Virus record (IMG/VR): IMGVR_UViG_3300032268_001605
Coordinates: 1 to 64,000 of that record
Source of the DNA: a virus
Reading direction: 5' to 3' (one strand)
Length of the DNA stretch: 64,000 bases
In this document: in pieces, positions 793-28,093 of the stretch
How positions within the stretch are numbered: the stretch's first letter is position 1
How the letters are laid out: each line of letters opens with the position of its first letter
The notes under the pieces: model-generated
The model's database searches: none
The model's input: the letters and a program-made list of their open reading frames with translations, nothing else
Told to the model about the DNA's origin: nothing
Program-made: the position numbers and the translations under genes

Positions 793-812
793 TTTTTATT
801 TTTTGTTTTTTT

Positions 813-1061
813 TTATCTGTTGTTGTACAACAGATTCTTGATATTCTTGATAGCATTGGTGAAAGCCAATGGTTCACAAGAACCTTTTTCTGTCAAATAC
901 TCATCTACATAAGATAATAGTTCTGGGCTTAATTGAAATATAAAGTTAGATTTACTTTTCAGTTTTTCTACTTGATATTTGTACCCCTTGGTCTTGAGAA
1001 ATGCAGCTAAATACAAATCTGAGGTTACATAATTTTCGATTGGAGATTCTGGAGATTGCAT
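813..1061 (-). CDS. Small protein, DUF5659-like
   Basis: YVTSDLYLAAFLKTKGY motif; AATATATA element upstream. Confidence 0.5.
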   Translation of the reverse strand: MQSPESPIENYVTSDLYLAAFLKTKGYKYQVEKLKSKSNFIFQLSPELLSYVDEYLTEKGSCEPLAFTNAIKNIKNLLYNNR

Positions 1062-1081
1062 ATTATTTATATATATTTTTT

Positions 1082-1411
1082 TTAAACTTGAAATCTGTAA
1101 GTTATTACTAATCTATCACCTGGTTCTGGAGGAAGACAAAACTTAACACAATTTTTACTTACTGTATAGTCCCTATCCTGCCCATATTCCTGTAACAAAC
1201 CATTTAAATAAACATGCTCAGAAGCATTCACCGGTGGATGACTTAACATAAAATCACGGTTTCTACCATTAATTTCACCCTCGGGCTTCTCTCTAGTCAT
1301 ATAAGCAACCGTCATCGGGCTATTTAAGAGAGTGCTTTTGAGTTCGTTAGTTGATTTTATTAGTTTTAAGTTTTCATCCCTTTGTGATTTTTCTACAAAC
1401 ATATTTAACAA
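1082..1411 (-). CDS. Hypothetical protein with phage structural beta-module
   Basis: PEGEINGRNRDF-L...P...SEHVYLNGLLQ..G..DY......F..PP..GD....Y module shared with the next ORF. Confidence 0.55.
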   Translation of the reverse strand: MLNMFVEKSQRDENLKLIKSTNELKSTLLNSPMTVAYMTREKPEGEINGRNRDFMLSHPPVNASEHVYLNGLLQEYGQDRDYTVSKNCVKFCLPPEPGDRLVITYRFQV

Positions 1412-1426
1412 TTCCTTAACAATTTT

Positions 1427-1918
1427 TTAAAGCGATATTAAATAAGAAACTTGAATCGAATCTCCTGAATTCGGTGGATCCAAAAATTCTATCATCGGTC
1501 CACTCATAATATAATCCAGTCCTTCGTCTTGAAGTAAACCATTTAAAATTATATGTTCAGAATCCGGCACTGGAAATTGTGGTAATGTAAAGAATTTATT
1601 TGTACCATCAATATCACCAGAAGGGGTTATATTTGCTATTGATACAAATTGACCTACTAAACCACTCTTTTTCGCCTTGATTCTACCTTGATTAGATCCT
1701 TTATATGGATTTAAGGGCCTATTCAAGTCTTTATCCCAAAGTAACCTTACATAGTTTTTCTTCAAAAATTCTTTCTTTTCAAAATATTCTTCTTCTTTTT
1801 GTTTAAGTTCATCTTTCTTTTCTTGCCTAGAGTTTTCTAATTTAGATAGTATTTCTTGTATCGTCTTACCCATTTCTACTATTCTTAATTTTGAACTCAC
1901 AATATATATTCCTTCCAA
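1427..1918 (-). CDS. Hypothetical protein: charged N-terminus plus the same beta-module
   Basis: PSGDIDGTNKFFTL...SEHIILNGLLQDEGLDY...PPNSGDSIQVSY; paralogous to 1082..1411; true start probably the internal ATG (MGKTIQ). Confidence 0.55.
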   Translation of the reverse strand: MEGIYIVSSKLRIVEMGKTIQEILSKLENSRQEKKDELKQKEEEYFEKKEFLKKNYVRLLWDKDLNRPLNPYKGSNQGRIKAKKSGLVGQFVSIANITPSGDIDGTNKFFTLPQFPVPDSEHIILNGLLQDEGLDYIMSGPMIEFLDPPNSGDSIQVSYLISL

Positions 1919-2075
1919 AAAGAATAAAATAATATGAATCTTTGTTTTTTTCTAAATTTTTATTCATAAAAAAAAAATATTTTTATATATAAAAAAAAAT
2001 ACTGAAGAAATTAAACTGCAGAATCTTAATTTATATATAAAATTTACATAAACAATCTTTAATACTCAATTCTAT

Positions 2076-3161
2076 TTATTCAAATTGTTCAACTACCTTA
2101 AATCCACCTTCTTTTAAGTAGCTCTCCCTTTTGAATAATTCTAAATCAGATTCAACCATTTCCCTACACAATTCTTCAACACTACAGGTTGGTTCCCAAC
2201 CCAATTCACTTTTAGCCTTAGAATAATCACCAATTAACAAGTCAACTTCTGCTGGTCTAAAATATTTAGGATCTATCTCAACTAAAACTCTTCCGGTTTC
2301 AATATCGTACCCCCTTTCATTTACACCCTCTCCAACCCATTTAAGTTTAATTCCAATGTGACTAAAAGACATTTCAACAAACTTTCTAACACTAATCTTT
2401 TTATTGGTAGCTAATACATAGTCATCTGGTTTATCCTGTTGTAACATTAACCACATTCCACGAATATAATCCTTCGCATGTCCCCAGTCACGTTCAGCAT
2501 CCAAATTACCTAATAGAATCTTGTCTTGTAATCCGTGATAGATTTTTGCAACACCACGAGTAATTTTTCTTGTTACAAAAGTCTCACCTCTAACTGGACT
2601 TTCATGATTGAATAAAATTCCAGAACAAGCAAACATCTCATAAGATTCACGATAGTTCTTAGTTATCCAGTGTGCATATAATTTAGCTACACCATAAGGA
2701 CTTCTTGGATAAAAAGGTGTGGTTTCCTTCTGAGGAATTTCTTGTACTAGGCCAAACATTTCAGAAGTCGATGCTTGATAAAATTTAGTTTTCTTTTCTA
2801 ATCCTAAAATTCTGATTGCTTCTAAAATTCTAAGTGTTCCAATTGCGTCCGCATTCGCTGTATATTCAGGTGTCTCAAAGGAAACTTTAACGTGTGATTG
2901 AGCGGCTAAGTTATAAATTTCATCAGGTTGAACTTGTTGAATAATTCTGATTAGGTTAGTAGAATCTGTTAAATCACCATAATGTAGAAAAAAGTTTTCT
3001 GATTTTTCTTTATAAAGGTGGTCGATTCTATCCGTATTAAATAGTGAACTTCTTCTTTTGATGCCGTGTACAATATACCCCTTTGATAGGAGTAATTCTG
3101 ATAAGTATAATCCGTCTTGTCCGGTTATTCCTGTGCAAAGTGCTACTTTCTTATTCTGCAT
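2076..3161 (-). CDS. gmd: GDP-mannose 4,6-dehydratase
   Basis: [55 protein letters not shown] motifs. Confidence 0.97.
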
Positions 3162-3163
3162 TT

Positions 3164-3796
3164 TTATAAATTTTTATTTCTGAATAAAACATTACCCATA
3201 TCTTGATGTGGTAAATCCTCAAAAACCACCTCAAAGTTATTAATTTCTAGAAATTCTTTGTATTGTGGATAAAGTAAAACATTTTCATATGTCTCAATCA
3301 GGGAAACTTCTGTGTAGAGATATCTTGTTTTAGAGAGTGTTGTGATAGAATTTTTCAAAACGCTTGGTTCGGCCCCCTGCATATCCAACCACATTAAATC
3401 AATTTTTTCTATTTTCTCTTGTTCACAGAAGTCATCTAAAGTTATAGATTCTATTATTCTTTCCACATTAAAAGTTATTTGTGGATGAACCTGTAAGTGG
3501 TCTTTGGGTTTTAAGAGTGACGATGAAGCAAAAATTTGTCCAAATCTATCACTTATAAAAATGTTCTGCTGACCAGTTTCTGATGAGAGTGCTTTTTTGA
3601 AAAGATTCAAATTTTTGTATTGATAAAGTTTCTGAGAACAGAAATTAAATAGTTCATCAACTGGTTCGAAAGCATATACTTTACCGTAAGTAAATCTATC
3701 ACAGAAGAACTGTGTATCACTACCATCGAAAGCGCCAGCTTCAACTATTATTGAGTCTAAACTTAAATTATTAATTATCCAATCTTGTATTTTCAT
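3164..3796 (-). CDS. FkbM-family methyltransferase
   Basis: [31 protein letters not shown]. Confidence 0.9.
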
Positions 3797-3811
3797 TTTA
3801 ATTTATTATTT

Positions 3812-4660
3812 TTAATCTTCTGATACTGCTCTGCCTATTTGTTTTTCCCAATCTTTATTGGTTCTCACTTCTTTATTTTTCTCGATTGTTGCGGTCAACA
3901 TCGTTGTTTTAATATTTTTAGAGTCTGCTAAGAATTTTAGACTTGAAATATCTTTTGGAAAGCAATGTCCACCAAACCCCATATCACCATCGTGTCCAGG
4001 AACTGACCAATGAGAGTTTCCTAATCTATTATCATATTTTGTGTATTCTATTACTTTATCAAAATCTATATCAACTGCTTGACATATTTGATATATCTCA
4101 TTAGCGAATGAAAGTTTTGTTGCCAAGAATGTATTAGTAACATACTTCACCATTTCGGCAATAGTCGAAGAAGTTTTTATTATTGTAACATTCGGGAAAG
4201 CCTTTTCAAAAATTGATTTAACAGTAGATGTATGAGGTCTTTCGCCACCAACAATAATTCTATTCTGATTCTTGAAGTCTTCGTTTGCGTTAGCTTCTGT
4301 TAAAAACTCTGGGTTAAAAACTATATTTATGTTTTTGAATTGTGAGTTCAAGCTTTTAGTTGTTCCAGGAGGTATAGTAGATTTTATTACAACAATAAAA
4401 TCTTTTTTATTTAGCGAATCTACTATTAGTCCTACTTGTGATAAACAATTTTCCACAATGTATAAATCACACTCACCGGATTTTTTCATAGGTGTTGGTA
4501 GACATAAAAAAGTAACATCTACTTTTTCTATAAGTTCAAAAAGGGAGTTTTCTGTACAATTTCCTTTCAAATCAAAAGTCTTGATGTCAAAGAAATTACT
4601 TAGTCCTTCTTTTACAGCAGTTCCAACAAACCCCTGTCCTATTATTCCAATTTTTTTCAT
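3812..4660 (-). CDS. UDP-glucose/GDP-mannose dehydrogenase family, short form lacking the C-terminal domain
   Basis: GQGFVG, CLPTP, KSTIPPGT, NPEFL, KYVTNTFLA, GFGGHCFPKD; only 282 aa. Confidence 0.88.
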   Translation of the reverse strand: MKKIGIIGQGFVGTAVKEGLSNFFDIKTFDLKGNCTENSLFELIEKVDVTFLCLPTPMKKSGECDLYIVENCLSQVGLIVDSLNKKDFIVVIKSTIPPGTTKSLNSQFKNINIVFNPEFLTEANANEDFKNQNRIIVGGERPHTSTVKSIFEKAFPNVTIIKTSSTIAEMVKYVTNTFLATKLSFANEIYQICQAVDIDFDKVIEYTKYDNRLGNSHWSVPGHDGDMGFGGHCFPKDISSLKFLADSKNIKTTMLTATIEKNKEVRTNKDWEKQIGRAVSED

Positions 4661-4663
4661 ATT

Positions 4664-5296
4664 CTATAAAAATTTTTTCTTTACATAGATTGCATCTCCC
4701 CAATATTGTCCCATCCAATTTTCATCGACCTTAACAAAATCGAAACCTGATAGAAATTCGTCGATTTCGTTGACCAGTGCACAATTTTCATACATATACA
4801 CTTTATTTACTTCCGAATTAATTATATCTATGTTAGGTAGTATATTAGTAGCGCCTTTTAAAACCTCGAGTTCATAACCCTGAACATCAATGTTGAGTAC
4901 GTTATATTCGACCTCGGAATCTTTTAGGAATTCATTTAAAGTTGTTATCTGAACAATTTCTCTAAACGGGAACTGTATTCCCGGATATTGTGTCAAGTGA
5001 AATGCTGGTTTAAGTATAGAAGAAGACTGACCTTCGTTTGCCACTTCAACAAACATTTCTATGTCACCAGTTTTATTACCTAAAGCTTTATTCACAAATA
5101 ATAAATTACAACTTTCTGATTTATTTTTTTCTCTAACATTTTTTTCAAGTCTTTCAAATGTCTTGGACAAAGGTTCGAAAAAAACTACATTTTTGAAATT
5201 TAACTCATTATATGTAACGATTTCATAACCAAAGTGTGCTCCAACATGAAGTACACCCCTTGGTTCTATTTTGTATTTTAAAATAAATTCTTTCAT
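4664..5296 (-). CDS. FkbM-family methyltransferase
   Basis: HVGAH, FFEP, NIDVQGYELEVLKG, WGDAIY. Confidence 0.9.
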   Translation of the reverse strand: MKEFILKYKIEPRGVLHVGAHFGYEIVTYNELNFKNVVFFEPLSKTFERLEKNVREKNKSESCNLLFVNKALGNKTGDIEMFVEVANEGQSSSILKPAFHLTQYPGIQFPFREIVQITTLNEFLKDSEVEYNVLNIDVQGYELEVLKGATNILPNIDIINSEVNKVYMYENCALVNEIDEFLSGFDFVKVDENWMGQYWGDAIYVKKKFL

Positions 5297-5309
5297 TTTG
5301 ATTTTTTTT

Positions 5310-6038
5310 TTATTTTATTGAAACACCTTTCCAATCTTCATAGACAAATATATCTCCGTACCAAGGCTTGTCTCCGACTGGGTATAGTATACTTTTTGAT
5401 TTACTGAGTAAGCCTATCCACCAGCTAAAGGTTCCTTTACTAAGGATTAGTTTACCAAAATCTTTAGCAAAATTTATCGTATCTATTGGATTATTTTCAT
5501 ATAGTATTATATTATAATTTTCCATTAATGTTTGTATTAAAGTGTGATTTGGTGAGTCAGTTGAGAGGTAAATTTTGTCGAAATTCATCGAATCAATAGA
5601 TTTTGAGTAATATTCATATCCAGGACTATAGTTTGACACATCACCTAATCTAACATGAATAAAAACGTCTTCTAAGTGGGTTTCTTTATATTTTAAGTCA
5701 AAGTGTGATAATATTTCGTGTCGGTAGTCTTTTACAAACTCCTTCACTTGAAAATTTCCGTCGTATAAAATACCAGAATCAATGTCATCTTGTCTTCTCA
5801 TTAAATCAATTAGTGTACCGTAAGGTCCTGTTGTTACGTGGCTTAATTCAATATCATAGCAATTCACGATATTTTCAAAAATTTTTTCACCTTGGAATAA
5901 AGACAACCCAAGTATTTTAAAATCCTCGACACTCTGATAGTGAGATACCTTCAAGTTAAACTTTTTTGCTATAATACTAATACCAACATTTTCTAGTAGA
6001 ATATTACCGGTCCTTCCTGAGTATTTTGGATAAATCAT
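5310..6038 (-). CDS. GT11-like alpha-1,2-fucosyltransferase
   Basis: GRTGN, IHVRLGD, STD, SKGTFSWW motifs. Confidence 0.8.
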   Translation of the reverse strand: MIYPKYSGRTGNILLENVGISIIAKKFNLKVSHYQSVEDFKILGLSLFQGEKIFENIVNCYDIELSHVTTGPYGTLIDLMRRQDDIDSGILYDGNFQVKEFVKDYRHEILSHFDLKYKETHLEDVFIHVRLGDVSNYSPGYEYYSKSIDSMNFDKIYLSTDSPNHTLIQTLMENYNIILYENNPIDTINFAKDFGKLILSKGTFSWWIGLLSKSKSILYPVGDKPWYGDIFVYEDWKGVSIK

Positions 6039-6041
6039 ATT

Positions 6042-6482
6042 TTATTTCATATATTTTATTATGTAATCTGAACATAAACCCAAACATTCATTAACATCAT
6101 CATTAAATAACTCAGGCATTACTGAGATACTATTTTTTATAGGTTGATTTCCAGGGAAAACCCACATATGACCTTTAGAAGTCAAAGTCATTAAATCATT
6201 TTCATGCCAGAAATAGTTTAAATCTATTTTATTGATATTGAAATATTCAATTGATTCTTTGTTTTTACAATGAACCCAAAGTTTATTCTTTCGATTTAAC
6301 AACCACTCCAAAACTATTGCACTTTCTGGTCTATCGTGTCCTAAAAAGAACGACTCTTGAATTAACCAAACATCAATTTCGACATCATATCCAAGTGAAA
6401 GAGCCTCATCTATAAAATCAGTTGTATTTTCTCTGTCTATAGTTCTACCATATAAATTTCCTCTATGAGATATTAAAATCAT
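6042..6482 (-). CDS. Small GDPD/PLC-like phosphodiesterase
   Basis: ISHRGN, EN, DVEIDVW, LGHD, HCKN, CSDY. Confidence 0.75.
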   Translation of the reverse strand: MILISHRGNLYGRTIDRENTTDFIDEALSLGYDVEIDVWLIQESFFLGHDRPESAIVLEWLLNRKNKLWVHCKNKESIEYFNINKIDLNYFWHENDLMTLTSKGHMWVFPGNQPIKNSISVMPELFNDDVNECLGLCSDYIIKYMK

Positions 6483-6484
6483 GA

Positions 6485-7717
6485 CTAAAAAATCCTATAG
6501 GCTAAATCAGGTGAAAAATTCTTCTCTCCCCATTTTTTTATGGCTTCTATATACTCAATTTGTGAGTAATCACCGTTTATAGATTGTTTCATTGCTTTTG
6601 CTCCTGATAGCGTTCCCATAGGGTGACCATGTAGTGCACCACCTACATTAGCCATCCAGTCAGTCGAATTCAAGAACTGATTTATATATGATACTAAACC
6701 GGGATGCATTCCACAACTTAGCGCTGGTACAATATTATATTTCCACAAAACTTTCAAAGCATCAATGAGTTCCTCATCATCTTGATTCATATATCCACCA
6801 ATCATACCAGCGTGAATAGAGTCAGCTCCAGACCATCCAGCTATTTTACAAATTACAGGCCAATAGATGTGAAAAGGTGATATTCTGTCTGTAAAAAATT
6901 TATCACCGCTTTTCTGAAAGTGTATCCAAAGATTTGGATTTTCTTTTCTAATTGCTCTATAAACACCTAACCCACTCCAAACATTTATGTGTATTCCTGT
7001 ACCGCCTTCTTCTGATACAAATTTTGCCCTTTGAAGAGCGTATGGACTATCACCATTAATACAGAATGTATAAATTACATCTGGCGCATTTTTTTGTAAC
7101 CAATTCGATATAAGCGGTACTCTCTTTTGTAAGGTGCAATGTGATGGGTTACCAAGCAACTCATCTTCTTTTATAAAGTTAACACCACCATCAACCATTT
7201 CTTTTACTGCTTCTAATAGAATGTCCGGACTCATTCCCAATTTTGGTTTGATTATACCACCTAAAAAAGGCTTCATTTCTACTCCGTTGAATTTTCGGAA
7301 TCCATCTATACCGTATGCAGGTTTTAATCTGAAAGTTCTTTCTAATTCCTCTGGTAAAGTGATGTCTAAAATTACACACTTTTCTATTTCAAGTATATCA
7401 ACTTGACCACCGGCTATGTGACAGATAATTTGTGAAATACCATCTTCCTCAAAGTCGATGTTCGATATAGGGAAAGCAATTTCAATGATACCCTCTTCAA
7501 CAGACTTCAAATATGACTCGTCGCCTAATACTACACAGCTATGATTCTCAAACATCTCCTGAGTTTCCCAAATGCTTCTATTGTTTGGATTACCTATACT
7601 TTGACCTATTGCTAAATTCCAGGCTGCATCTTTTAGTGACGTTCTGCCTTTTAGGAAATACTTCACTATGAAGTATTTGTTTCTATCAATCTCTTGACTG
7701 AAAATATTAAAAGTCAT
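6485..7717 (-). CDS. RuBisCO-like protein (form IV-like)
   Basis: GGIIKPKLG, FIKEDE, DSIHAG, LSCGMHPG, GGALHGHPMG motifs of the RuBisCO large-subunit fold; H294 and K334 equivalents appear substituted. Confidence 0.9.
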   Translation of the reverse strand: MTFNIFSQEIDRNKYFIVKYFLKGRTSLKDAAWNLAIGQSIGNPNNRSIWETQEMFENHSCVVLGDESYLKSVEEGIIEIAFPISNIDFEEDGISQIICHIAGGQVDILEIEKCVILDITLPEELERTFRLKPAYGIDGFRKFNGVEMKPFLGGIIKPKLGMSPDILLEAVKEMVDGGVNFIKEDELLGNPSHCTLQKRVPLISNWLQKNAPDVIYTFCINGDSPYALQRAKFVSEEGGTGIHINVWSGLGVYRAIRKENPNLWIHFQKSGDKFFTDRISPFHIYWPVICKIAGWSGADSIHAGMIGGYMNQDDEELIDALKVLWKYNIVPALSCGMHPGLVSYINQFLNSTDWMANVGGALHGHPMGTLSGAKAMKQSINGDYSQIEYIEAIKKWGEKNFSPDLAYRIF

Positions 7718-7786
7718 GTTTTATATTTTTTTTTTGTTAATCTTTCTTAATATATGCTGAAGGATAGATATAGTTTAAATTTTTTA

Positions 7787-8107
7787 TTATACATTATATT
7801 TATCACCAGGTAAAGATGGTGTTTTGATTACTACAAGTTTGCAATCTGTGTGGAAAACTGGGTCTGCTACTTCGAAAGGATATATCACAAATACATCTCC
7901 CGTTCTTAATTCTTTATCTCCTATTCTCATTTCACCATCAATTAAGAAATTGATTTCTGTTGCAATTTTATGTATATGTGCAGACCAAATCTCTCCTTTT
8001 TTGTGATTGAGTATTCCCACTTCAAATTGTTCTGTTTTGAAACAAGCTGGTTCAAAATTTCCAACAAACCAACCTCTAAAATAATCTTCAATTCTACTTA
8101 TTTTCAT
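7787..8107 (-). CDS. Cupin-domain protein
   Basis: GWFVGNF, HIHK..TE, G.M...L..GD; 106 aa. Confidence 0.8.
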   Translation of the reverse strand: MKISRIEDYFRGWFVGNFEPACFKTEQFEVGILNHKKGEIWSAHIHKIATEINFLIDGEMRIGDKELRTGDVFVIYPFEVADPVFHTDCKLVVIKTPSLPGDKYNV

Positions 8108-8777
8108 ACTCTAAATATTTTTTCAAATCTTCTGGTGTACCAATTGGATAATGTTGATTAAACATATATATTCCCACTTTATAGTTTTTTTGTATAAGAT
8201 AGCTGTATGATGGAGCAATATAGAATTCATCATTTGTTCTATCATTCTTCTCAAACATTTCATCACAAGATTCAAAAAAATATTTCGCTTTCCTCCAGTA
8301 ATGTAGGCCGTTTGTCGCAATGTTTGAAATCACTACCTTTTCTCTAACCTCTGTGACTAAATTACTTTCGTCCACTTTGACAAATGAGTTTTTTGGTGAA
8401 TTAGAAATGAAGCATCCTAAAACTCCGTCAAATTTTCTTGCAAAAGTCAAAAAAAGTTCTTGATTCCAATCTTTAATAATTTGATCACAATTAGTAATTA
8501 TGAGCTCATCCTCTAAATTGATTATTGATTTTGATAGATAAGCACTACATGCTGGACCTTCAGTTGTGTAGTCTATTTCAATTTTGTCAACGTTTTCTAA
8601 GGTTAGATTGTGTTCATTTCTGGTAATTATTATTAGTTTACAGTCACCCCTAAAGTTTTCAATGACGTGTTCTATCATGTTTCTACCATTCCAACTAATA
8701 AGCGGTTTGGGTTCCTGATATTCTGAATTTATGAATCTGCTTCCTCTTCCTGCAGCAGGTATTAAAATTTGTAACAT
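8094..8777 (-). CDS. Sugar-phosphate nucleotidyltransferase (NTP_transferase family)
   Basis: IPAAGRGSRF, PKPLI, NCDQ, EK, EFYIAP, GTPEDL. Confidence 0.88.
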   Translation of the reverse strand: MLQILIPAAGRGSRFINSEYQEPKPLISWNGRNMIEHVIENFRGDCKLIIITRNEHNLTLENVDKIEIDYTTEGPACSAYLSKSIINLEDELIITNCDQIIKDWNQELFLTFARKFDGVLGCFISNSPKNSFVKVDESNLVTEVREKVVISNIATNGLHYWRKAKYFFESCDEMFEKNDRTNDEFYIAPSYSYLIQKNYKVGIYMFNQHYPIGTPEDLKKYLEYENK

Positions 8778-8788
8778 TAATTTTTTAT

Positions 8789-9553
8789 TTATTTTGAAAT
8801 AAAACCCAAACAGTAATCTATAGAGGATTGAACACTATCACGACCTAATTCATCAACGTCATTTTTGGACCAATTTCTATAATTTCTAACTATGTAATAA
8901 TTTTTAACTTTTTGACTTGGTATGAATGAATATTTGCTTTCATTTATCACATTTTGAAACAGTGTTTCTGGATCTCTTGAAGTTTTTATCAATTCGTTAA
9001 TTTTAGTAAGATCTAAGTTTTGAAAAGATTTTAAAAATGAATTTTTGTTACAAATAAAAAAATGGTCATTATGTCTTTGTGTCCTACCATAGTCATACCA
9101 GAAGCAAACTGGGAAATGAAAATCACTAGTTTCAAAGTTGAATTTATCAAACATGATTTTGAGATCTGTTCTACAAAAGACATAATAATCAAAATCTGTA
9201 TATGTTTTGGCAATTTGAATCATTTTTGTATAGAAATGAAATACTCCATACAGATTCGATATCCACCAGGGCTTTGACATATCAGCTATATCAAACGTCT
9301 TTATTTGAGACAACAACATATCAATATCGGGTTGAGAAGAAATCAGGTTTAAATTGAAATTTTCCTCTATAACAGATTTGTTAACTTCGTATTCCCTATT
9401 ATCTTGGTCAAGTTCTTTATTGTTGAACCAAGTAGAAAGTAAAGTTGTTTTCTCACATTCATCGAAATTACTCAATAACAAGTTTTTGTTATTGATAACG
9501 CTCTCCAAATCCGGTCTAAGTAAACCATGCACTATAAAAAGAATACGTTTCAT
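8789..9553 (-). CDS. Hypothetical glycan-biosynthesis protein (putative glycosyltransferase-like)
   Basis: HGLLR, STW, R.DL, NDHFF, PE pattern; cluster context. Confidence 0.45.
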   Translation of the reverse strand: MKRILFIVHGLLRPDLESVINNKNLLLSNFDECEKTTLLSTWFNNKELDQDNREYEVNKSVIEENFNLNLISSQPDIDMLLSQIKTFDIADMSKPWWISNLYGVFHFYTKMIQIAKTYTDFDYYVFCRTDLKIMFDKFNFETSDFHFPVCFWYDYGRTQRHNDHFFICNKNSFLKSFQNLDLTKINELIKTSRDPETLFQNVINESKYSFIPSQKVKNYYIVRNYRNWSKNDVDELGRDSVQSSIDYCLGFISK

Positions 9554-9575
9554 ATTATTTATTTATTTTTATATA

Positions 9576-10361
9576 TTAAGACCAAGAGTTTCCATTCAGA
9601 TGTGTGACTAAAGATTCGTCATTCCATTTACCGTAGACAAAACAACCAAATCTTTCTAGTGCTAAATCTAAACCCATCTTAGAAATATAGAATTCCATCA
9701 ACTCATTTAATGGACCTTCAACAAACCCACCTTCATTTGATGTGTTGTACACAAATGTTTTCCACCAATCTTGAAAGACTGTTGTTTTACAAATATAAGG
9801 ATTATTGGACCATCTGAATGTCGATATGAGTGCAATACTTTTAGAGACATTTGAACTCCCTTCTATCAAATTGTTATATCTTATATTATTATTGTCAAAC
9901 TGATTAAATCTAATATAGTTTATGTTTGAATTATTAGATATCTCGTCAATTACTTCTTTCAAATCTATCTTTCTCTTAAAAATCCAATCATGTTCCCAAA
10001 AGATGTATAATTCTGTTTTAACTGAGTCTATTAAGTTGATGAAGTTTTTTGGTGCTGTAACGATTGGATCGTCTATCTCTGACTCATTCGTAAATATTTT
10101 CAAATTCTTGATATTACTCTCCAAATTCAGCAAATTTCTATGGTAGATATTATCAATTTCTCTACCTACTCTCTTATCGAATCCTATGTGTATGAAAACA
10201 TCTTCAGGATTTAAATTTGTTTTGAAAAAGAAGTCTTTCAACACAGACTCAATTAATTTTGTAGATGGGGTACTTGGAACTACGTTCTTGACACCCGCCC
10301 AAGTTCCCTGGCTTTCTGTTTTAATACAATGAGTTGTAATACAAAGTGTTATTTTAGACAT
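9576..10361 (-). CDS. GT-A fold (GT2-like) glycosyltransferase
   Basis: WEHDW (DxD-like), WSNNP, terminal HL.G.S. Confidence 0.6.
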   Translation of the reverse strand: MSKITLCITTHCIKTESQGTWAGVKNVVPSTPSTKLIESVLKDFFFKTNLNPEDVFIHIGFDKRVGREIDNIYHRNLLNLESNIKNLKIFTNESEIDDPIVTAPKNFINLIDSVKTELYIFWEHDWIFKRKIDLKEVIDEISNNSNINYIRFNQFDNNNIRYNNLIEGSSNVSKSIALISTFRWSNNPYICKTTVFQDWWKTFVYNTSNEGGFVEGPLNELMEFYISKMGLDLALERFGCFVYGKWNDESLVTHLNGNSWS

Positions 10362-11188
10362 TTTTTATTTATTTTTTTTAGAAGCATGTGAGCAATACTA
10401 CCCTCGAAAAATAGTTCTATTATCTCGAAACTAGTTAATATGTGGAAAATCTTTATAAACTCCGAATGTGAACCAAGACAAGTACTATAAAATAGATAAT
10501 TTGTTGTTTCTAAGACTTCAGAAGATTCAAAATATTTTTCTATTGGTAGTTCACTCAAACTATGATTAGCAATTACTAAATCAAATTTTTGTTTTTTAAC
10601 TTCGTTTAAGCTATCTGAATATAAAATTCGTTCTAATTGAGTTTCATCAAGATTCTTTTTCAGGAAAAATTCTTGTAGTCTAGACATACCCGGTATGTCA
10701 ATAATTGTGTAATTGTTAATATTTATGACTAACTTGAACAGTAACCTACAAACATTGCCATATCCTCCGCCAAACTCCAATATTCTCAAATCTTCAATTT
10801 CGTTGAATCTGAAATGTTTTATTAAAAATGTTAGATATATCAAATGGTTCGCTGTAACATAAGAAGTAATTCTGGGACTTCTCTCACTGATAACTTTTTT
10901 CTGATCGTCTGTGTATCCGACCAAAGAGTCTCCTATTGAAGCTAGTTGTTGGAATATTTCTGGTGAAATTAAATTACAATGATTCATAGCATGGTTAAGT
11001 ATCTCATTGTAGTTGTCTATTCTAGCAATACAAAAATGAAAATTTTGATCTGATTGAAATTTTTCCAATTCCTCTTCCGTAAAGTCAGGAAATTTTATGT
11101 CTTCAACCCAATAGTCGTAGTCGACTTTTTGTAATTTTTTTTTGTTTTTTTTATAGATTTCTCTCAGTAAATTGTTTTTTTCAATCAT
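10349..11188 (-). CDS. Putative sugar O-methyltransferase (class I SAM)
   Basis: ILEFGGGYG, IIDIP, FDLVIANHSLSE. Confidence 0.8.
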   Translation of the reverse strand: MIEKNNLLREIYKKNKKKLQKVDYDYWVEDIKFPDFTEEELEKFQSDQNFHFCIARIDNYNEILNHAMNHCNLISPEIFQQLASIGDSLVGYTDDQKKVISERSPRITSYVTANHLIYLTFLIKHFRFNEIEDLRILEFGGGYGNVCRLLFKLVININNYTIIDIPGMSRLQEFFLKKNLDETQLERILYSDSLNEVKKQKFDLVIANHSLSELPIEKYFESSEVLETTNYLFYSTCLGSHSEFIKIFHILTSFEIIELFFEGSIAHMLLKKINKKCLK

Positions 11189-12039
11189 TTTAAATTATTT
11201 TTTTTTGTAATAAAATTTTGCAATTTTTTTCTAAGTTCCGATTTAAAGTTTACAAACCATTCATTAACTTTTTGATTTAATAATCTTTTATCAACATTGC
11301 TACATTGATTTTTCACATCATTCCAATCTTTTGCGACTATGAAAGGGTGATCGCCATAAATTTTCTCAAAATAGTCAGTGCCGTCTTTCTCGAAGATCGA
11401 AACAGGTATTGAACCACACTCAAGTGCCTCATTTATTCTAAAACTATCTAATGATATCCACCCTCTGGGACAAAGTGTGAACCAACTTCTACTCAAAACT
11501 TCTGAATATTGAGTTAGATTCAAAGAATCAGGATCATTCCACATTCTTGTCAGATAAAAATAAGAGTTGGGTAAAACTTTGAAAGTATTCAACATTTCAT
11601 ATCTATCCGACTTTAACTGTCCCACAAAATTAACTTCAATAGTTTTATCTGTTTGATTTTTTTTAACACCACTTTGATACCCTAATGGTATTGTCATCAA
11701 ATTGAATTTTTTTGTATATTCTTCATTATAATAGTTTCTAATTATTTTTCTCGAAACGTCATAAAAGTCTATGTTTTGTTCAAAAGCCTCATCAGATAAA
11801 TGTAGAATAGAATAGTTTAAATTTAATTTATTATACTCTTGTATATAAGAAATTAAACTATTATTAGAGTCTTTCCCAACCGATACAATTATGACAGAAT
11901 TATTTTCGAAAGTTTGAAATCTATTTTCAAAATCATCGATATGAGTTATTTCAAATTTTGAAAAAATTTCTTCAATCCAATTTAATGAAAAATTCTTTTC
12001 ATATTGAGATTTAACACACCAAATCATATTTATTTTCAT
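11185..12039 (-). CDS. Exostosin-like (GT47) glycosyltransferase
   Basis: FVGQ, S.FTLCPRG, SFRINEALECGSIPV. Confidence 0.82.
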   Translation of the reverse strand: MKINMIWCVKSQYEKNFSLNWIEEIFSKFEITHIDDFENRFQTFENNSVIIVSVGKDSNNSLISYIQEYNKLNLNYSILHLSDEAFEQNIDFYDVSRKIIRNYYNEEYTKKFNLMTIPLGYQSGVKKNQTDKTIEVNFVGQLKSDRYEMLNTFKVLPNSYFYLTRMWNDPDSLNLTQYSEVLSRSWFTLCPRGWISLDSFRINEALECGSIPVSIFEKDGTDYFEKIYGDHPFIVAKDWNDVKNQCSNVDKRLLNQKVNEWFVNFKSELRKKLQNFITKKNNLK

Positions 12040-12980
12040 CTTATATAAAAATTTTTGAATTTTTCCATTACTATTTCAGGTTTACAATCATGATAACAAG
12101 TCCAATCAAAATCTCTTTTTGGTTCAAATTTTTTAAAAATACTTAATAATTCTTGATAATCATCATAATAAAAACCCTTTCCACCAAGATATTCAATATG
12201 GTTTCTCTCCATAGAACCATACCAAGTTATTACTGGTTTATTTTTCATTGAGAATTCAGCACAAGTCAATCCGAAGGATTCTCCAATATGACGAGCATGA
12301 ATAAGAGCATCGGTAGTATTTATGAATTTAACTTTTGTATATAAGTCTGGCGAAGCAGGTAAATGTATTATTCGTTCATGTTCATAGAATTCGTCGGTAC
12401 CTTGAAATAAAAAATATACATCTTTTCTTATATTTAAAATATCAACTACAGCCTGTTTTGCGAATGGTAAATCAAAGGTATCATGTCCACCGTTTCTTCC
12501 AAAAACAACAGAGTCTATGGGAATACCCAATTCTTCTCTGAAGTTCGAATCGTGTTCTGGTAAATTTACCATGTAAGAAACATAATCTATCTGATTATTT
12601 GTAATTTTACTCAACCATTTGGAGCCCATCGCAAATCTGTCTCCGTGAATATCATTGGAATTACAAATTGTAATTGCGTTAATCCAATTCGAACAATATT
12701 TTGATATTACTCCATCTGGTTTTCCGCCTTTAATCATAAAAAAAGCATCACATTTCTCAGAAGAAAGTATTTCATCTATTTGATTCAAACTCTCATAGTT
12801 AAAAGTTTTAAATCTATTTTTAAATCTTTCTATAGCAATATTTTGATTATGTATAGACTTATTATTATAGAGAATAATTGGATCGATTCCCAAAAACTCT
12901 TCACTTTTTTCAGCAAAGTCCCAAAGTGCATTAGTCGTGCCTCTTACGCTCAATCCATTATCGTGAAAACATATTTTCAT
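12036..12980 (-). CDS. GT-B fold (GT4-like) glycosyltransferase
   Basis: RGT, HARHIGESFGLTCAEF, KPVIT. Confidence 0.75.
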   Translation of the reverse strand: MKICFHDNGLSVRGTTNALWDFAEKSEEFLGIDPIILYNNKSIHNQNIAIERFKNRFKTFNYESLNQIDEILSSEKCDAFFMIKGGKPDGVISKYCSNWINAITICNSNDIHGDRFAMGSKWLSKITNNQIDYVSYMVNLPEHDSNFREELGIPIDSVVFGRNGGHDTFDLPFAKQAVVDILNIRKDVYFLFQGTDEFYEHERIIHLPASPDLYTKVKFINTTDALIHARHIGESFGLTCAEFSMKNKPVITWYGSMERNHIEYLGGKGFYYDDYQELLSIFKKFEPKRDFDWTCYHDCKPEIVMEKFKNFYIR

Positions 12981-12983
12981 ATT

Positions 12984-13625
12984 TTAAACTTCAATTTGTT
13001 TTAAACCAGGTTCCAACCAAGCAACTTTCAATTGATTTAATTGGATAACTTCGTTCATTTTAATATCTATTGGATTGTTTATATTTCCAAATCCAATAAT
13101 GAGTTTATCTACACATTTTATATCAACCAGATAAGCATGAGTACATCGTGTTTTCTGTAGTGGATGATAATGAATTGAATTACCCTCAATTACATTCGGT
13201 GATACAAAATCTGAAAAACCACCCAACATAACTATATCATAATTTCCTGTCCGCATCTCACTTGAAACTTTTTCTAAAATTGATATAAAGTTGTTTGGAA
13301 TTTCGCAATCATCTTCCAAAATTAAAATTTTTTCAAAATGATTATCTCTTTGTTTCTCCCAACAATTAATATGTTTCAAAACCAGACTCAAGCTCCCAGG
13401 ACTAATTTTTTTAGGATAATTATAATATGAATAATACTTGATTTGTTGTATGATTATAGGGTAATATTGATTTGAATTCTTAACAATTTCCTCATAATCC
13501 AATTCCTCCGGAGAAAAATTTTCGATAATTTCGTAGCTTATACCTTCATAATTGAGCCTTTCGGTAATGTGTTTTCTTCGCTTATCAAAAGCCGGATGAC
13601 TTAATAGATACACTTTATCAATCAT
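12984..13625 (-). CDS. GT25-like glycosyltransferase
   Basis: RRKHI, SLVLKH, LILEDD, THAYLV, PID. Confidence 0.8.
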   Translation of the reverse strand: MIDKVYLLSHPAFDKRRKHITERLNYEGISYEIIENFSPEELDYEEIVKNSNQYYPIIIQQIKYYSYYNYPKKISPGSLSLVLKHINCWEKQRDNHFEKILILEDDCEIPNNFISILEKVSSEMRTGNYDIVMLGGFSDFVSPNVIEGNSIHYHPLQKTRCTHAYLVDIKCVDKLIIGFGNINNPIDIKMNEVIQLNQLKVAWLEPGLKQIEV

Positions 13626-13626
13626 T

Positions 13627-14502
13627 TTAATCTAATATTTTTTTAAAAAAATTTAATACATTTTCAGGTTGAACAAAATCAGGTATTTTATTATCTACAA
13701 ACCAAGGTTGATTTATCATATCGTTATATAGATTTTCGTCCGAATCAATTTTTATGATTTGCTCTATAAATTCTTCGTCAGATTTATAGTCATGATAGTT
13801 CAAAAAAGAGTTCCTGTTAAAATCATTAGAAACAAATGGATCACCCCAGTAAATCGGTATACACCCAGCGAACATCGAGTTTATTATCTTTTCAGTACAA
13901 TAACCCGAGTGGCTAGAATTCTCGAAAGATACGTTGAACTTATATTCTTTTAGGAAGTTTATTTTATAAATTTGGTCACCTCTACCAGGAACTAAAGGAA
14001 TATTGTTAAAGAGTCTGCCACCACAATCTATATGCTTATATCTATAGAGTTTTGGAACAAAATCTAATCGTTTTCCCATCGGTTTAGACGCTATAAAACT
14101 ACAAAATTTTGTTTTTTGAGGTATTTTCTTATTGAGGAAATCGTCTATACTGTGTAAATAAGCTTGATCTCTTTCGTCTCTATAAGGTCGGTCAAACCAG
14201 TTTAATATCAGTGCCCAAAGTGGTAAGCGATAATTCCTCGGGTCCGAAGAATAATCAAACGAGATTGAATAGTGACAATTTGTATAATCAGGTCGAAAGT
14301 TTTCACCGGTATACAAAATTTTAATAACCTTCTTCATATCATATTTCAAATGGTTATTTGAGTATACTGTATAAAAAAGTACATCAGGGTTGATATTATC
14401 GATTTCTATCTCATACCGCAGAGAGAGTAGGTTATAGAAGTAATTATCAGTTGGTATCAGTTCACCCCAAAAATCAGAAAAACCAATTTTTATTTTTCTC
14501 AT
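13627..14502 (-). CDS. GT10 alpha-1,3-fucosyltransferase
   Basis: YTGEN, FCSFIAS, YKFNVSFENS, GYCTEKI, IPIYWG. Confidence 0.92.
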   Translation of the reverse strand: MRKIKIGFSDFWGELIPTDNYFYNLLSLRYEIEIDNINPDVLFYTVYSNNHLKYDMKKVIKILYTGENFRPDYTNCHYSISFDYSSDPRNYRLPLWALILNWFDRPYRDERDQAYLHSIDDFLNKKIPQKTKFCSFIASKPMGKRLDFVPKLYRYKHIDCGGRLFNNIPLVPGRGDQIYKINFLKEYKFNVSFENSSHSGYCTEKIINSMFAGCIPIYWGDPFVSNDFNRNSFLNYHDYKSDEEFIEQIIKIDSDENLYNDMINQPWFVDNKIPDFVQPENVLNFFKKILD

Positions 14503-15986: not shown

Positions 15987-16004
15987 TTTTATTTTTATTT
16001 TTAT

Positions 16005-17439: not shown

Positions 17440-17446
17440 ATCTATT

Positions 17447-18100: not shown

Positions 18101-18118
18101 ATTTTATATAATTTTTTT

Positions 18119-18817: not shown

Positions 18818-18835
18818 TTTTAAGTCTCTTTATTC

Positions 18836-21063: not shown

Positions 21064-21086
21064 GTTATTTATATTTTTTGATTTTA

Positions 21087-22607: not shown

Positions 22608-22622
22608 ATCTAATCATACATT

Positions 22623-24218: not shown

Positions 24219-24325
24219 ATATCTATTTTTTAATGTTTTTAATTATATACTTTTCCACAATAAAGTTGGAAAAAAAGAACTATATTTGGTTCCAGAAATA
24301 TAATATATATAAATAAAAGTATTAC

Positions 24326-26179: not shown

Positions 26180-26217
26180 AAAAAAAGAGGTGTAGATTAA
26201 TCTACATCTCTTTTTTT
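26180..26217. terminator. Bidirectional terminator between convergent endonuclease genes
   Basis: A-run agaggtgtaga-ttaa-tctacatctct T-run. Confidence 0.75.
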
Positions 26218-28038: not shown

Positions 28039-28052
28039 ATAATCTATATATT

Positions 28053-28093
28053 AAAAAAAATAACCCTATTTTTAATATAGGGTTATTTTTTTT
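28053..28093 (-). terminator. Intrinsic terminator directly after clp fragment 1
   Basis: aaaaaaaataaccctat / atagggttatttttttt inverted repeat. Confidence 0.8.

What the first reader, a model, noticed from the sequence alone, without database searches (positions are those of the whole stretch)
6042..8777. Phage RuBisCO-like protein in a sugar-nucleotide module
Seen: NTP-transferase, cupin, RLP and phosphodiesterase are contiguous inside a glycosyltransferase cluster. The RLP keeps KPK and K-E-D-E (carbamylated Lys site) but has HFQKSG and GMIGGY where carboxylases have His294 and Lys334. It has its own AAACT-N16-ATATATT element (7776-7749). Known: form IV RLPs act as enolases, isomerases or decarboxylases on sugar phosphates and acids, including in branched-sugar catabolism. 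Inference: not CO2 fixation, but a biosynthetic role making an unusual activated sugar or polyol-phosphate for the glycan. I know of no characterised biosynthetic role of this kind.
Basis: partly seen in the sequence, partly recalled or inferred. Interest (0 to 1): 0.75.

Follow-up and report, generated by a model that had tools for sequence, protein, structure and literature searches.

The report
Phage RuBisCO-like sugar-activation gene cassette
A large freshwater phage carries an intact relative of the CO2-fixing enzyme RuBisCO that cannot fix CO2 and that, in viruses, bacteria and archaea alike, travels with (and is sometimes fused to) a sugar-activating enzyme, so it probably helps build an unusual activated sugar for a surface glycan, a job never tested for this enzyme family.

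Summary
Window 6042-8777 (minus strand) encodes, back to back, a sugar-nucleotidyltransferase (NT), a 106-aa cupin, a 410-aa RuBisCO-like protein (RLP) and a 146-aa stripped-down GDPD-type phosphodiesterase, inside a glycosyltransferase/methyltransferase island. The RLP keeps the Mg/carbamate site (KPK, KEDE) but has Gln and Tyr where carboxylases need His294 and Lys334. All 126 relatives examined share this. It fails the curated cut-offs for form III RuBisCO, MtnW and OiaX.

The cassette is conserved. An NT lies within four genes of the RLP in 75 of 81 viral and 41 of 45 cellular loci (SAR11, Legionella, Azospirillum, CPR, DPANN). RLP+NT, NT+cupin, NT+GDPD and HAD+NT fusions exist. A fifth gene (8789-9553, DUF7796-like) probably belongs to it.

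The biosynthetic reading is therefore well supported by context, but no substrate or product is known.

The "own promoter" motif is present but no commoner than chance.

The phage RLP clade is in print (Jaffe et al. 2019, function unclear). I found no paper on its link to sugar activation. This scan has reported the same cassette on other DNA several times. I rate it a new variant of a known kind, interest about 0.65.

The parts
8789..9553 (-).
   Evidence: hhalign against the ~260-aa neighbour family A5 gives 93.2%, E 2.9e-7, 191 columns. The control ORF 9576-10361 gives 2.5%. That family is near the RLP in 44 of 126 loci and sits 2 genes after it 33 times. A direct HMM search of the own genome missed this gene. 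No Pfam or PHROG hit. Atlas leads point to DUF7796 and GT-A-like glycosyltransferase models, TM 0.63-0.71.
8094..8777 (-). Nucleotidyltransferase (NT), 227 aa, RmlA/GDP-mannose-pyrophosphorylase superfamily, uncharacterised 4evw-like subfamily
   Evidence: PF12804 2.1e-9, over cut-off. N-half of phrog_3980, 2.6e-51. The family profile hits 4evw 'nucleoside-diphosphate-sugar pyrophosphorylase' at 8.5e-36 over its full length, sugar-1-P NTs at 1e-12 to 1e-8, and IspD/LicC/IPCT at 1e-5 to 1e-4 over the N-terminus only.
7787..8107 (-). 106-aa single-domain cupin with motif G-x5-H-x-H-x4-E-x6-G; His44, His46 and Glu51 invariant
   Evidence: Alignment A2. PDB profile hits 1e-6 to 1e-4. AF2 pLDDT 90.3. 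Foldseek: Thermococcus phosphomannose isomerases 7zvm/7zvy at 8.5e-5, QdtA 3,4-ketoisomerase at 4.7e-4. phrog_24762, 2.2e-34.
7749..7776 (-). AAACT-N16-ATATATT promoter-like motif in the 69-nt cupin-RLP gap
   Evidence: Sequence read. There are 4 matches in the window against 1.24 expected, and 7 of 100 shuffles reach 4. The sigma-70-type scan of 1-19000 found 108 sites against 103 expected. Present, but not distinguishable from chance.
6485..7717 (-). RuBisCO-like protein (RLP), 410 aa, 'form IV-like' phage clade. The Mg/carbamate site is kept and the CO2-addition residues are replaced.
   Evidence: PF00016 2.3e-32 and PF02788 7.4e-5. Best PDB hit is 2cwx, 1.9e-34. All NCBIfam RuBisCO/RLP models fall far below cut-off. 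The clade signature is invariant in 126 of 126. It forms a separate clade of 22 of 100 representatives.
6042..6482 (-). 146-aa minimal GDPD-fold phosphodiesterase-like protein; His6, Arg7, Glu18, Asn19, Glu35, Asp37, His49 and Asp50 invariant
   Evidence: Alignment A1. The family has 2431 members, the 120 listed being 143-158 aa, with no Pfam domain on record. PDB profile hit 7e0v, 0.0022. AF2 pLDDT 96.2. Foldseek GDPDs at 4e-3. VIA Z 10.6. hhalign to full-length GDPDs 96.4%.

Best explanation
The genes form a biosynthetic cassette that makes a nucleotide-activated, unusual sugar for the glycosyl- and methyltransferases around it. The glycan would sit on the host envelope or on the virion.

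Proposed steps:
1. The RLP uses its carbamylated Lys-Mg2+ site to enolise a 2-keto sugar phosphate (a ketose 1-phosphate or ketose bisphosphate). It then reprotonates the enediolate to give an epimer or isomer. It adds no CO2 and cleaves nothing, because the His294 and Lys334 positions are Gln and Tyr.
2. The metal-binding cupin does an aldose-ketose or keto-isomerisation.
3. The NT joins the resulting sugar phosphate to an NMP from an NTP.
4. The mini-GDPD makes or breaks a phosphodiester at one end of the route. It could free the precursor, trim a second phosphate ester, or pass on the phospho-sugar.
5. The DUF7796-like protein is the candidate transferase.

Shown: gene identities, the residue signature, conserved linkage, the fusions and the glycan-locus context. 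Inferred: every chemical step, the order of steps and the target.
For: (1) Linkage. An NT lies within 4 genes of the RLP in 75 of 81 viral loci, the cupin in 68 and the GDPD-like gene in 59. All three are present in 44 and none in 1. In cellular loci the figures are NT 41 of 45, GDPD-like 19, cupin 12 and none 4. After dereplication at 90% RLP identity: NT 85 of 94, cupin 59, GDPD-like 57.

(2) Fusions:
- RLP+NT: P0245, 667 aa, 52% identical to the window RLP.
- NT+cupin in 5 loci.
- NT+GDPD in L051.
- HAD_2+NT, 453 aa, followed by a GDPD-like paralogue.

(3) Co-divergence. Mantel r of the RLP against the NT is 0.62, against the cupin 0.43 and against the GDPD-like protein 0.36. None of 999 permutations reaches these values.

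(4) Context. The window island holds GT10, GT25, GT47-like genes, FkbM methyltransferases and Gmd. Recurrent neighbours elsewhere are an SDR epimerase/dehydratase (29 loci), methyltransferases (28 and 18 loci), GT2 (16 loci), and DegT aminotransferase, UDP-GlcNAc 2-epimerase, WavE and a carbamoyltransferase. LicD lies divergently adjacent in 4 of 4 Legionellaceae loci. A CMP-sugar-type cytidylyltransferase and GT2 lie next to it in Pelagibacter and Turneriella.

(5) Active site. K175, K177, K201, D203 and E204 are kept, as are the phosphate-site S379, G381 and G403. Position 294 is Gln and 334 is Tyr, in 126 of 126.

(6) The NT is closest to sugar-1-phosphate NTs over about 170 residues.

(7) The cupin is nearest in structure to a small phosphomannose isomerase and to a sugar 3,4-ketoisomerase.
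Against: - No substrate, product or activity is known for any of the five proteins.
- No kinase, aldolase or mutase that would feed the route recurs among the 109 neighbour-family representatives scanned. The tool listed only the top 25 of 76 Pfam families.
- The cupin and GDPD-like genes are absent from many cellular loci, so only RLP+NT is a constant core.
- The Mantel correlations are inflated by shared ancestry.
- Many loci are near-duplicates or are cut at contig ends.
- The role given to the GDPD-like protein is the weakest step: phosphodiesterases are not normal members of nucleotide-sugar routes.
- The source of a ketose bisphosphate in heterotrophic hosts is unclear.
Confidence: 0.55

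Rival explanations
1. Same cassette, different chemistry. The NT makes a CDP-type activated phospho-alcohol or ketose phosphate, in the manner of CDP-ribitol, CDP-arabinitol or CDP-glucitol (recalled). The unit is then transferred as a phosphodiester by a LicD-type or GDPD-type enzyme, so the glycan carries a phospho-sugar or phospho-polyol decoration.
For: - LicD (PF04991, 1e-42), a family of phospho-alcohol transferases, is the divergent neighbour of RLP-NT in 4 of 4 Legionellaceae loci, which lack the cupin and the GDPD-like gene.
- A GDPD or mini-GDPD is paired with, or fused to, an NT in DPANN and other loci.
- Pfam places the NT in NTP_transf_3, with a weak IspD hit.
- RXYLT1-like domains are present in the island.
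Against: - The NT profile matches sugar-1-P NTs far better and over more of its length than IspD, LicC or IPCT.
- No reductase is a constant member.
- LicD was found in none of the other loci held (L002-L066, L071, L072).
Confidence: 0.2
2. The activated product is not for a surface glycan. It serves phage DNA hypermodification, as sugars on modified bases do in T4-like phages (recalled), or it is a small molecule.
For: In one group of relatives (L014-L025) the cassette lies next to a gp32-like gene and not in a large GT island. The target was never identified here.
Against: - The same cassette occurs in cellular genomes beside GT2, LicD, WavE and methyltransferases.
- The window copy sits inside a 17-kb GT/MT island.
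Confidence: 0.1
3. An auxiliary metabolic or salvage gene. The RLP works in pentose, nucleoside or methylthio-sugar salvage or in sugar-acid catabolism, like the characterised RLPs, and its neighbours are coincidental.
For: Every RLP characterised so far is catabolic or salvage (recalled). The NCBIfam names MtnW and OiaX appear as weak hits.
Against: - Scores are 3.9- to 6.6-fold under the MtnW and OiaX cut-offs.
- No mtn, transporter or dehydrogenase operon surrounds it.
- The fusion to an NT and the near-universal NT linkage are hard to explain by chance.
Confidence: 0.08
4. The RLP is a non-catalytic scaffold or regulator that has merely kept the fold.
For: No activity is known. Complex prediction gave no usable answer either way (see Tried and rejected).
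Against: The metal/carbamate and phosphate-site residues are invariant in 126 of 126. The RLP is also the most conserved member of the cassette, with mean distance 0.49 against 0.62 for the NT.
Confidence: 0.05
5. It is a real CO2-fixing RuBisCO.
For: Its best single PDB and NCBIfam hits are form III enzymes.
Against: - The His294 and Lys334 positions are Gln and Tyr, and N123 is Gly.
- rubisco_III scores 150.5 bits against a cut-off of 497.45.
- No phosphoribulokinase or AMP-pathway gene turned up in the Pfam, PHROG and NCBIfam scans of the ORFs submitted. No such family was searched for directly.
Confidence: 0.02

Closest known systems
'Form IV-like' RuBisCO-related proteins of phages and Beckwithbacteria (Jaffe, Castelle, Dupont, Banfield 2019, Mol Biol Evol; PMC6389311, passages read)
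   Same: Phage-encoded, highly divergent from other RLPs, partly conserved catalytic residues, found on >200-kb myovirus-like contigs, and grouping with a Beckwithbacteria sequence. Here a Beckwithbacteria MAG locus (L037) carries a 48%-identical RLP with the same cassette. This is very probably the same clade.
   Different: The paper's main text leaves the function unclear. It has no occurrence of nucleotidyl, glycosyl, pyrophosphorylase, cupin or polysaccharide. Its supplementary figures could not be read. The linkage, the fusions and the wide cellular distribution are added here.
Characterised form IV RLPs: MtnW/YkrW DK-MTP-1-P enolase, Rhodospirillum 5-methylthioribulose-1-P isomerase, OiaX/OiaT of D-apiose catabolism (functions recalled; names)
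   Same: The RuBisCO large-chain fold, the KPK and K-x-D-E Mg/carbamate site, and the expected enediolate chemistry on a keto-sugar phosphate.
   Different: Scores lie far below every curated cut-off. The clade has its own invariant Gln294/Tyr334/Gly123 signature. The context is biosynthetic, not salvage or catabolic.
Archaeal form III RuBisCO (best hit 2cwx, Pyrococcus horikoshii)
   Same: Best pairwise match, 1.9e-34 over residues 8-394.
   Different: Lacks the residues for CO2 addition and for hydration and cleavage. There are no AMP-pathway partners, whereas IF-2B fusions occur in another clade (P0277, P0286).
Nucleotide-sugar routes that start from a ketose phosphate, such as GDP-/ADP-heptose (isomerase, kinase, HAD phosphatase, NT) and CDP-alditol routes (recalled)
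   Same: An isomerase plus an NT (plus a HAD domain in some loci) sitting in glycan loci. The NT belongs to the same superfamily.
   Different: No known route of this kind uses a RuBisCO-fold enzyme or a GDPD-fold enzyme.
PDB 4evw, 'nucleoside-diphosphate-sugar pyrophosphorylase' (structural-genomics entry, function not assigned as far as the entry name tells)
   Same: Full-length relative of the cassette NT, 8.5e-36.
   Different: Whether it is paired with an RLP in its genome was not tested.

Membership tests
RuBisCO large-chain superfamily (PF00016/PF02788) | Match to the catalytic and N-terminal domain models above the curated cut-offs | tested here: met
   PF00016 scores 112.9 bits against 30.1, and PF02788 23.4 against 20.7.
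Bona fide RuBisCO (forms I-III) | Full catalytic set, including the His294 and Lys334 equivalents; the equivalog model score | tested here: not met
   Gln and Tyr at those positions. TIGR03326 scores 150.5 against 497.45, and PRK04208 135.3 against 438.
Bona fide RuBisCO (forms I-III) | Mg/carbamate site: K175, K177, K201, D203, E204 | tested here: met
   KPK and KEDE align to 2cwx and are invariant in 126 of 126.
MtnW/YkrW 2,3-diketo-5-methylthiopentyl-1-phosphate enolase | Equivalog model score | tested here: not met
   NF007095 scores 103.8 against 409, and TIGR03332 77.5 against 513.6.
MtnW/YkrW 2,3-diketo-5-methylthiopentyl-1-phosphate enolase | Methionine-salvage gene neighbours | tested here: not met
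   None among the 20 window ORFs scanned against Pfam, nor among the 25 commonest families of 109 neighbour representatives (51 further families were not listed).
OiaX 3-oxo-isoapionate-4-phosphate decarboxylase | Equivalog model score | tested here: not met
   NF042437 scores 115.3 against 700.
Phage/Beckwithbacteria 'form IV-like' RLP clade (Jaffe et al. 2019) | Phage-borne, separate from other RLP clades, grouping with Beckwithbacteria | tested here: inconclusive
   It forms a separate clade of 22 of 100 representatives in a FastTree. 399 viral stretches encode relatives. Beckwithbacteria locus L037 is 48% identical.
Cupin superfamily | Motif 1, G-x5-H-x-H-x3,4-E-x6-G (motif recalled), and a double-stranded beta-helix fold | tested here: met
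   The motif is readable in P0122 residues 38-58, with H44, H46 and E51 invariant. PDB profile hits reach 1e-6. Foldseek's 31 matches at E <= 0.001 include many cupins. The motif 2 histidine is not conserved.
Glycerophosphodiester phosphodiesterase family (PF03009) | Pfam model match | tested here: not met
   No Pfam family at E <= 0.01, and none on record for the 120 listed relatives.
Glycerophosphodiester phosphodiesterase family (PF03009) | GDPD barrel fold and the N-terminal H-R...E-N...E-x-D...H-D catalytic motif (motif recalled) | tested here: met
   VIA Z 10.6, 139 of 146 residues, rmsd 3.3. The motif residues are invariant. hhalign to bona fide GDPDs from related loci gives 96.4%. The protein is about 100 residues shorter than solved GDPDs.
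Sugar-1-phosphate nucleotidyltransferases (RmlA/GMPP/GlmU N-domain type) | Model match, and alignment over the nucleotide- and sugar-binding halves | tested here: met
   PF12804 scores 38.2 against 27. The profile aligns to residues 1-190 of GMPP and RmlA chains at 1e-12 to 1e-8. Which nucleotide and which sugar it takes is not testable with these tools.

The most novel reading that the evidence does not exclude
This clade is the first biosynthetic branch of the RuBisCO superfamily. It would be an enolising epimerase or isomerase that reshapes a ketose (bis)phosphate into the precursor of a so far undescribed nucleotide-activated sugar. That sugar might be a pentofuranose, a branched-chain sugar or a phospho-sugar. 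The route would be shared by jumbo and T4-like phages, SAR11, Legionella, CPR bacteria and DPANN archaea, and phages would use it to repaint the host surface or their own virions.
Probability: 0.45. Interest if true: 0.8.

Novelty: new variant of a known kind. Interest (0 to 1): 0.65.

Why it matters
All characterised RuBisCO-like proteins work in salvage or catabolism. A branch wired into nucleotide-sugar synthesis would widen what the most studied enzyme fold is known to do, and it would point to an unknown sugar in microbial and viral glycans.

The clade is large: 2608 relatives at E <= 1e-5 in the protein collection and 399 viral stretches. It also occurs in cultured bacteria (three Legionella species and Azospirillum oleiclasticum). 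The question can therefore be tested at the bench by knock-outs, glycan analysis and in vitro reconstitution.

For phage biology, it adds a conserved, unexplained module to the host-recognition and glycosylation islands of large aquatic phages.

Tried and rejected
1. Cultured-phage records. tblastn of the RLP against 50,697 phage records found nothing.

2. Virus type. Gp23, the NCLDV capsid, the T4 portal and gp32 models found nothing in the 139-kb record. Nothing rang in the controls either, so this says nothing. The phage call rests on PHROG hits, on a gp32-like neighbour in relatives and on Jaffe et al.

The contexts of the fused and distant representatives (P0245, P0258) could not be read.

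4. Complex prediction, RLP with NT: no verdict, score 0.00 against a mark of 0.32. This is no evidence either way.

5. Expression. One RNA-library contig of 251 nt, identical, lies at 8834-9084 in the DUF7796-like gene. None lies on the four genes. The run is kept as contigs and DNA may be present in it, so transcription is not shown.

6. Labelling the sister group of the clade. P0323 and P0315 have no close solved relative; their best hits are form III enzymes at 1e-54 and 1e-47.

7. LicD as a general partner: found only in the four Legionellaceae loci.

8. The DUF7796-like family against the PDB: no hit at E <= 10.

9. Neighbour census for feeder enzymes such as a kinase, aldolase or mutase. 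None appears among the 25 families listed of 76.

10. Literature. Searches found no paper linking an RLP to a nucleotidyltransferase or to glycan synthesis. Subscription journals are largely outside the library. The supplements of PMC6389311, which show the phage and Beckwithbacteria scaffolds, were closed and may show these neighbours.

11. Counts are lower bounds for GC-rich loci. The ORF filter dropped the Azospirillum cupin, NT and GDPD-like genes that one search shows.


Full report
WHAT IS THERE

The window is the first 64 kb of a 139-kb IMG/VR virus record, about 30% G+C. It has PHROG hits to phage DNA polymerase, an ATPase and many homing endonucleases.

On the minus strand, 6042-8777 holds four tightly packed ORFs:
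- 8094-8777, 227 aa. PF12804 NTP_transf_3, 2.1e-9, above cut-off.
- 7787-8107, 106 aa. It overlaps the end of the previous gene by 14 nt.
- 6485-7717, 410 aa. PF00016 RuBisCO_large, 2.3e-32.
- 6042-6482, 146 aa. It starts 2 nt after the RLP stop.

Around them lie a GDP-mannose 4,6-dehydratase, a UDP-glucose-dehydrogenase-like gene, FkbM methyltransferases, and GT10, GT25 and two GT47/RXYLT1-like genes.

THE TWO SMALL PROTEINS

The 106-aa protein carries the cupin motif G-x5-H-x-H-x4-E-x6-G, with His44, His46 and Glu51 invariant in 12 relatives. Its profile hits cupins in the PDB at 1e-6 to 1e-4. The AF2 model (pLDDT 90) is closest to the small Thermococcus phosphomannose isomerases (Foldseek 8.5e-5). 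A sugar 3,4-ketoisomerase, QdtA, follows at 4.7e-4.

The 146-aa protein belongs to a family of 2431 proteins; the 120 listed are 143-158 aa and have no Pfam domain on record. His6, Arg7, Glu18, Asn19, Glu35, Asp37, His49 and Asp50 are invariant. Three lines of evidence place it in the GDPD family:
- Its profile hits a GDPD at E 0.0022 over the first 50 residues.
- The AF2 model (pLDDT 96) aligns 139 of 146 residues to T. maritima GDPD at Z 10.6, rmsd 3.3. Of the first 34 rows, all are GDPD-type phosphodiesterases or lysophospholipases D except two, which are a glucanase that carries such a domain.
- It matches the full-length Pfam-positive GDPDs of related archaeal loci by hhalign at 96.4%.

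It is a stripped-down GDPD barrel, about 100 residues shorter than the solved ones.

THE RLP

Aligned to Pyrococcus form III RuBisCO (2cwx, 1.9e-34):
- KPK and K-E-D-E are kept.
- IHFQKSG aligns to IHAHRAM.
- HAGMIGGYM aligns to HTGTAVGKM.
- SCGMHPG and GGALHGHP keep the phosphate-site Ser and Gly residues.

In the recalled spinach numbering this means H294Q, R295K, K334Y and N123G. The N-terminal ESSTGTW loop reads GQSIGNP.

All NCBIfam RuBisCO/RLP models score far below their cut-offs:

| model | bits | cut-off |
|---|---|---|
| form III | 150.5 | 497 |
| OiaX | 115 | 700 |
| MtnW (NF007095) | 104 | 409 |
| MtnW (TIGR03332) | 77.5 | 514 |

An exhaustive HMMER search found 901 representatives. 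In a FastTree of the 100 near-full-length ones among the best 150, 22 form one clade that carries this signature.

In 126 of 126 RLPs taken from the fetched loci, G123, K175, K177, K201, D203, E204, Q294, Y334, S379, G381 and G403 are invariant. Position 295 is Lys in 121.

The enolisation machinery and at least one phosphate site are therefore under strong selection. The residues for CO2 addition and C-C cleavage have been replaced by a different, equally fixed pair.

IS THE LINKAGE REAL?

I fetched 82 viral loci (399 stretches matched and the best 80 were kept) and 47 genome loci. I scored their ORFs with HMMs built from the four families.

| partner within four genes of the RLP | viral loci (n = 81) | cellular loci (n = 45) |
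|---|---|---|
| NT | 75 | 41 |
| cupin | 68 | 12 |
| GDPD-like | 59 | 19 |
| all three | 44 | 8 |
| none | 1 | 4 |

Three of the 129 loci had no full RLP ORF and were dropped. The counts are lower bounds, because many loci end at contig ends. The ORF filter also lost the Azospirillum genes that one search shows.

After dereplication at 90% RLP identity, an NT is present in 85 of 94 loci, the cupin in 59 and the GDPD-like gene in 57.

The cellular carriers include:
- a complete Pelagibacter genome and a Verrucomicrobiae chromosome;
- Legionella maceachernii, L. nautarum and L. drozanskii;
- Azospirillum oleiclasticum and Turneriella;
- Bacteroidota;
- Beckwithbacteria, Saccharibacteria and several DPANN MAGs.

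The distribution is patchy. The clade is in 5 of 24 genomes of the Legionella nautarum genus and in 2 of 151 sampled genomes of the Pelagibacter family.

Fusions tie the genes together:
- RLP+NT: P0245, 667 aa, 52% identical.
- NT+cupin in five loci.
- NT+GDPD in L051.
- HAD_2+NT followed by a GDPD-like paralogue.

In eight loci (seven DPANN-archaeal, one Verrucomicrobiia; one further Planctomycetales relative is shorter) a full-length GDPD follows a second NT.

Pairwise distances of the RLP correlate with those of its partners: Mantel r is 0.62 for the NT, 0.43 for the cupin and 0.36 for the GDPD-like protein. None of 999 permutations reaches these values. Shared ancestry inflates such values.

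RLP+NT is thus the constant core. The cupin and the GDPD-like gene are frequent accessories.

A FIFTH MEMBER

A family of about 260 aa lies near the RLP in 44 loci and sits two genes downstream of it 33 times. It has a weak DUF7796 hit. The atlas names a related cluster as a capsular polysaccharide biosynthesis protein family.

A direct HMM search missed it in the window's own genome. But hhalign matches the ORF just upstream of the NT, 8789-9553, at 93.2%, E 2.9e-7, over 191 columns. The next ORF serves as a control and gives 2.5%.

The atlas model of this ORF resembles GT-A-type glycosyltransferases at TM 0.63-0.71. This is a lead only. It is the best candidate for the enzyme that uses the product.

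CONTEXT ELSEWHERE

Recurrent neighbours are:
- an SDR epimerase/dehydratase (29 loci);
- two kinds of methyltransferase (28 and 18 loci);
- GT2 (16 loci);
- a DegT aminotransferase and a UDP-GlcNAc 2-epimerase.

A census of 109 neighbour-family representatives is led by methyltransferases and GT2. It also shows WavE, a carbamoyltransferase and radical SAM enzymes.

In all four Legionellaceae loci a LicD-family gene (1e-42) is the divergent neighbour. In Pelagibacter and Turneriella a CMP-sugar-type cytidylyltransferase and a GT2 adjoin the pair.

None of this looks catabolic.

MECHANISM

I take the cassette to make a nucleotide-activated unusual sugar.
- The NT family has a full-length solved relative of unassigned function (4evw, 8.5e-36). 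It otherwise resembles sugar-1-phosphate NTs over about 170 residues, and resembles IspD, LicC and IPCT only at the N-terminus.
- The RLP most likely enolises a ketose 1-phosphate or a ketose bisphosphate and returns the proton elsewhere, giving an epimer or isomer.
- The cupin would isomerise between ketose and aldose forms.
- The NT would activate the product.
- The mini-GDPD handles a phosphodiester.

Every chemical step is inference.

The main rival keeps the cassette but makes a CDP-type phospho-sugar or phospho-polyol, which LicD- or GDPD-type enzymes transfer as a phosphodiester. The Legionella LicD and the NT-GDPD pairs speak for it. The NT's similarity profile speaks against it.

DNA hypermodification, salvage, a non-catalytic role and true carboxylation rank lower, for the reasons given under the rivals.

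THE PROMOTER CLAIM

The element is at 7776-7749, in a 69-nt gap. The motif occurs 4 times in the window against 1.24 expected, and 7 of 100 shuffles do as well. The general sigma-70 scan is at chance level. In most relatives the cupin and RLP genes abut or overlap. There is no evidence for a dedicated promoter.

WHERE IT OCCURS AND WHETHER IT IS EXPRESSED

Contig pieces with 0-3 differences over 150-290 nt lie on the stretch in a freshwater run of a study other than the probable source (X2). Pieces of the two other freshwater or lake runs laid (X6, X9) carry 0-12 differences.

One RNA-library contig covers 8834-9084 only. This does not show transcription.

WHAT IS KNOWN

Jaffe et al. 2019 (PMC6389311; abstract and passages read) reported about 80 phage 'form IV-like' RLPs and two Beckwithbacteria relatives. 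They called the function unclear.

The GOS paper (PMC1821046, passages read) had already noted novel RuBisCO-homolog groups. The pelagimyophage paper (PMC7029224, passages read) describes glycosyltransferase-rich host-recognition islands, but no RuBisCO.

Five searches found no paper linking an RLP to a nucleotidyltransferase or to glycan synthesis.

This scan has already reported the same cassette on other genomes, with the same reading. My tests agree with those reports. They add the DUF7796-like fifth gene in this window, the 126-of-126 signature count and the Mantel figures.

VERDICT

It is a new variant of a known kind. Interest is 0.65.

Noticed in passing
P0334 (protein; not in the window): A 583-aa protein fuses a TIR_2 domain (3.3e-13) to a complete RuBisCO-like large chain of another clade, 28% identical to the window RLP. 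This TIR-RLP pairing could be a defence or signalling enzyme.
   Followed up: no
P0366, P0277, P0286 (proteins): Other RuBisCO-family fusions exist: RuBisCO large chain plus an APH-type phosphotransferase domain (1265 aa), and IF-2B (ribose-1,5-bisphosphate isomerase family) plus a form-III-type RuBisCO (726 and 742 aa).
   Followed up: no
window 8789-9553 (minus strand): The ORF just upstream of the NT is a distant member of a ~260-aa DUF7796-like family that recurs beside the cassette. A 251-nt contig from an RNA library matches 8834-9084 exactly.
   Followed up: partly
L006 3671-5032; L031 749-2119; L075, L076, L120: HAD_2 (phosphatase/mutase-type) domains are fused to a paralogous NT, about 453-457 aa. 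In some loci this fusion takes the NT's place directly before cupin-RLP.
   Followed up: partly
L067-L070 (Legionella and Tatlockia loci): RLP-NT forms a two-gene unit. Its divergent neighbours are a LicD-family gene, an unknown 323-328-aa gene (missing in L069) and a CMD-family gene. Neither the cupin nor the mini-GDPD is present.
   Followed up: partly
L114, L129, L130: Three of the viral contigs that carry the cassette, with an NT+cupin fusion, are filed as giant-virus MAG bins (GVMAG names). Whether they are giant viruses or mis-binned phages was not examined.
   Followed up: no
window 19879-28446 and 37082-38317: Pfam shows a Clp-type ATPase in separate ORFs, with a weak intein hit, and a truncated family B DNA polymerase ORF. 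Other notes of this scan already treat these.
   Followed up: no
G000 record: The record is flagged as a provirus, with a CheckV completeness of 20% at 139 kb. The same RLP sequence is on a contig of 346 kb. This suggests a jumbo phage and not an integrated element.
   Followed up: no
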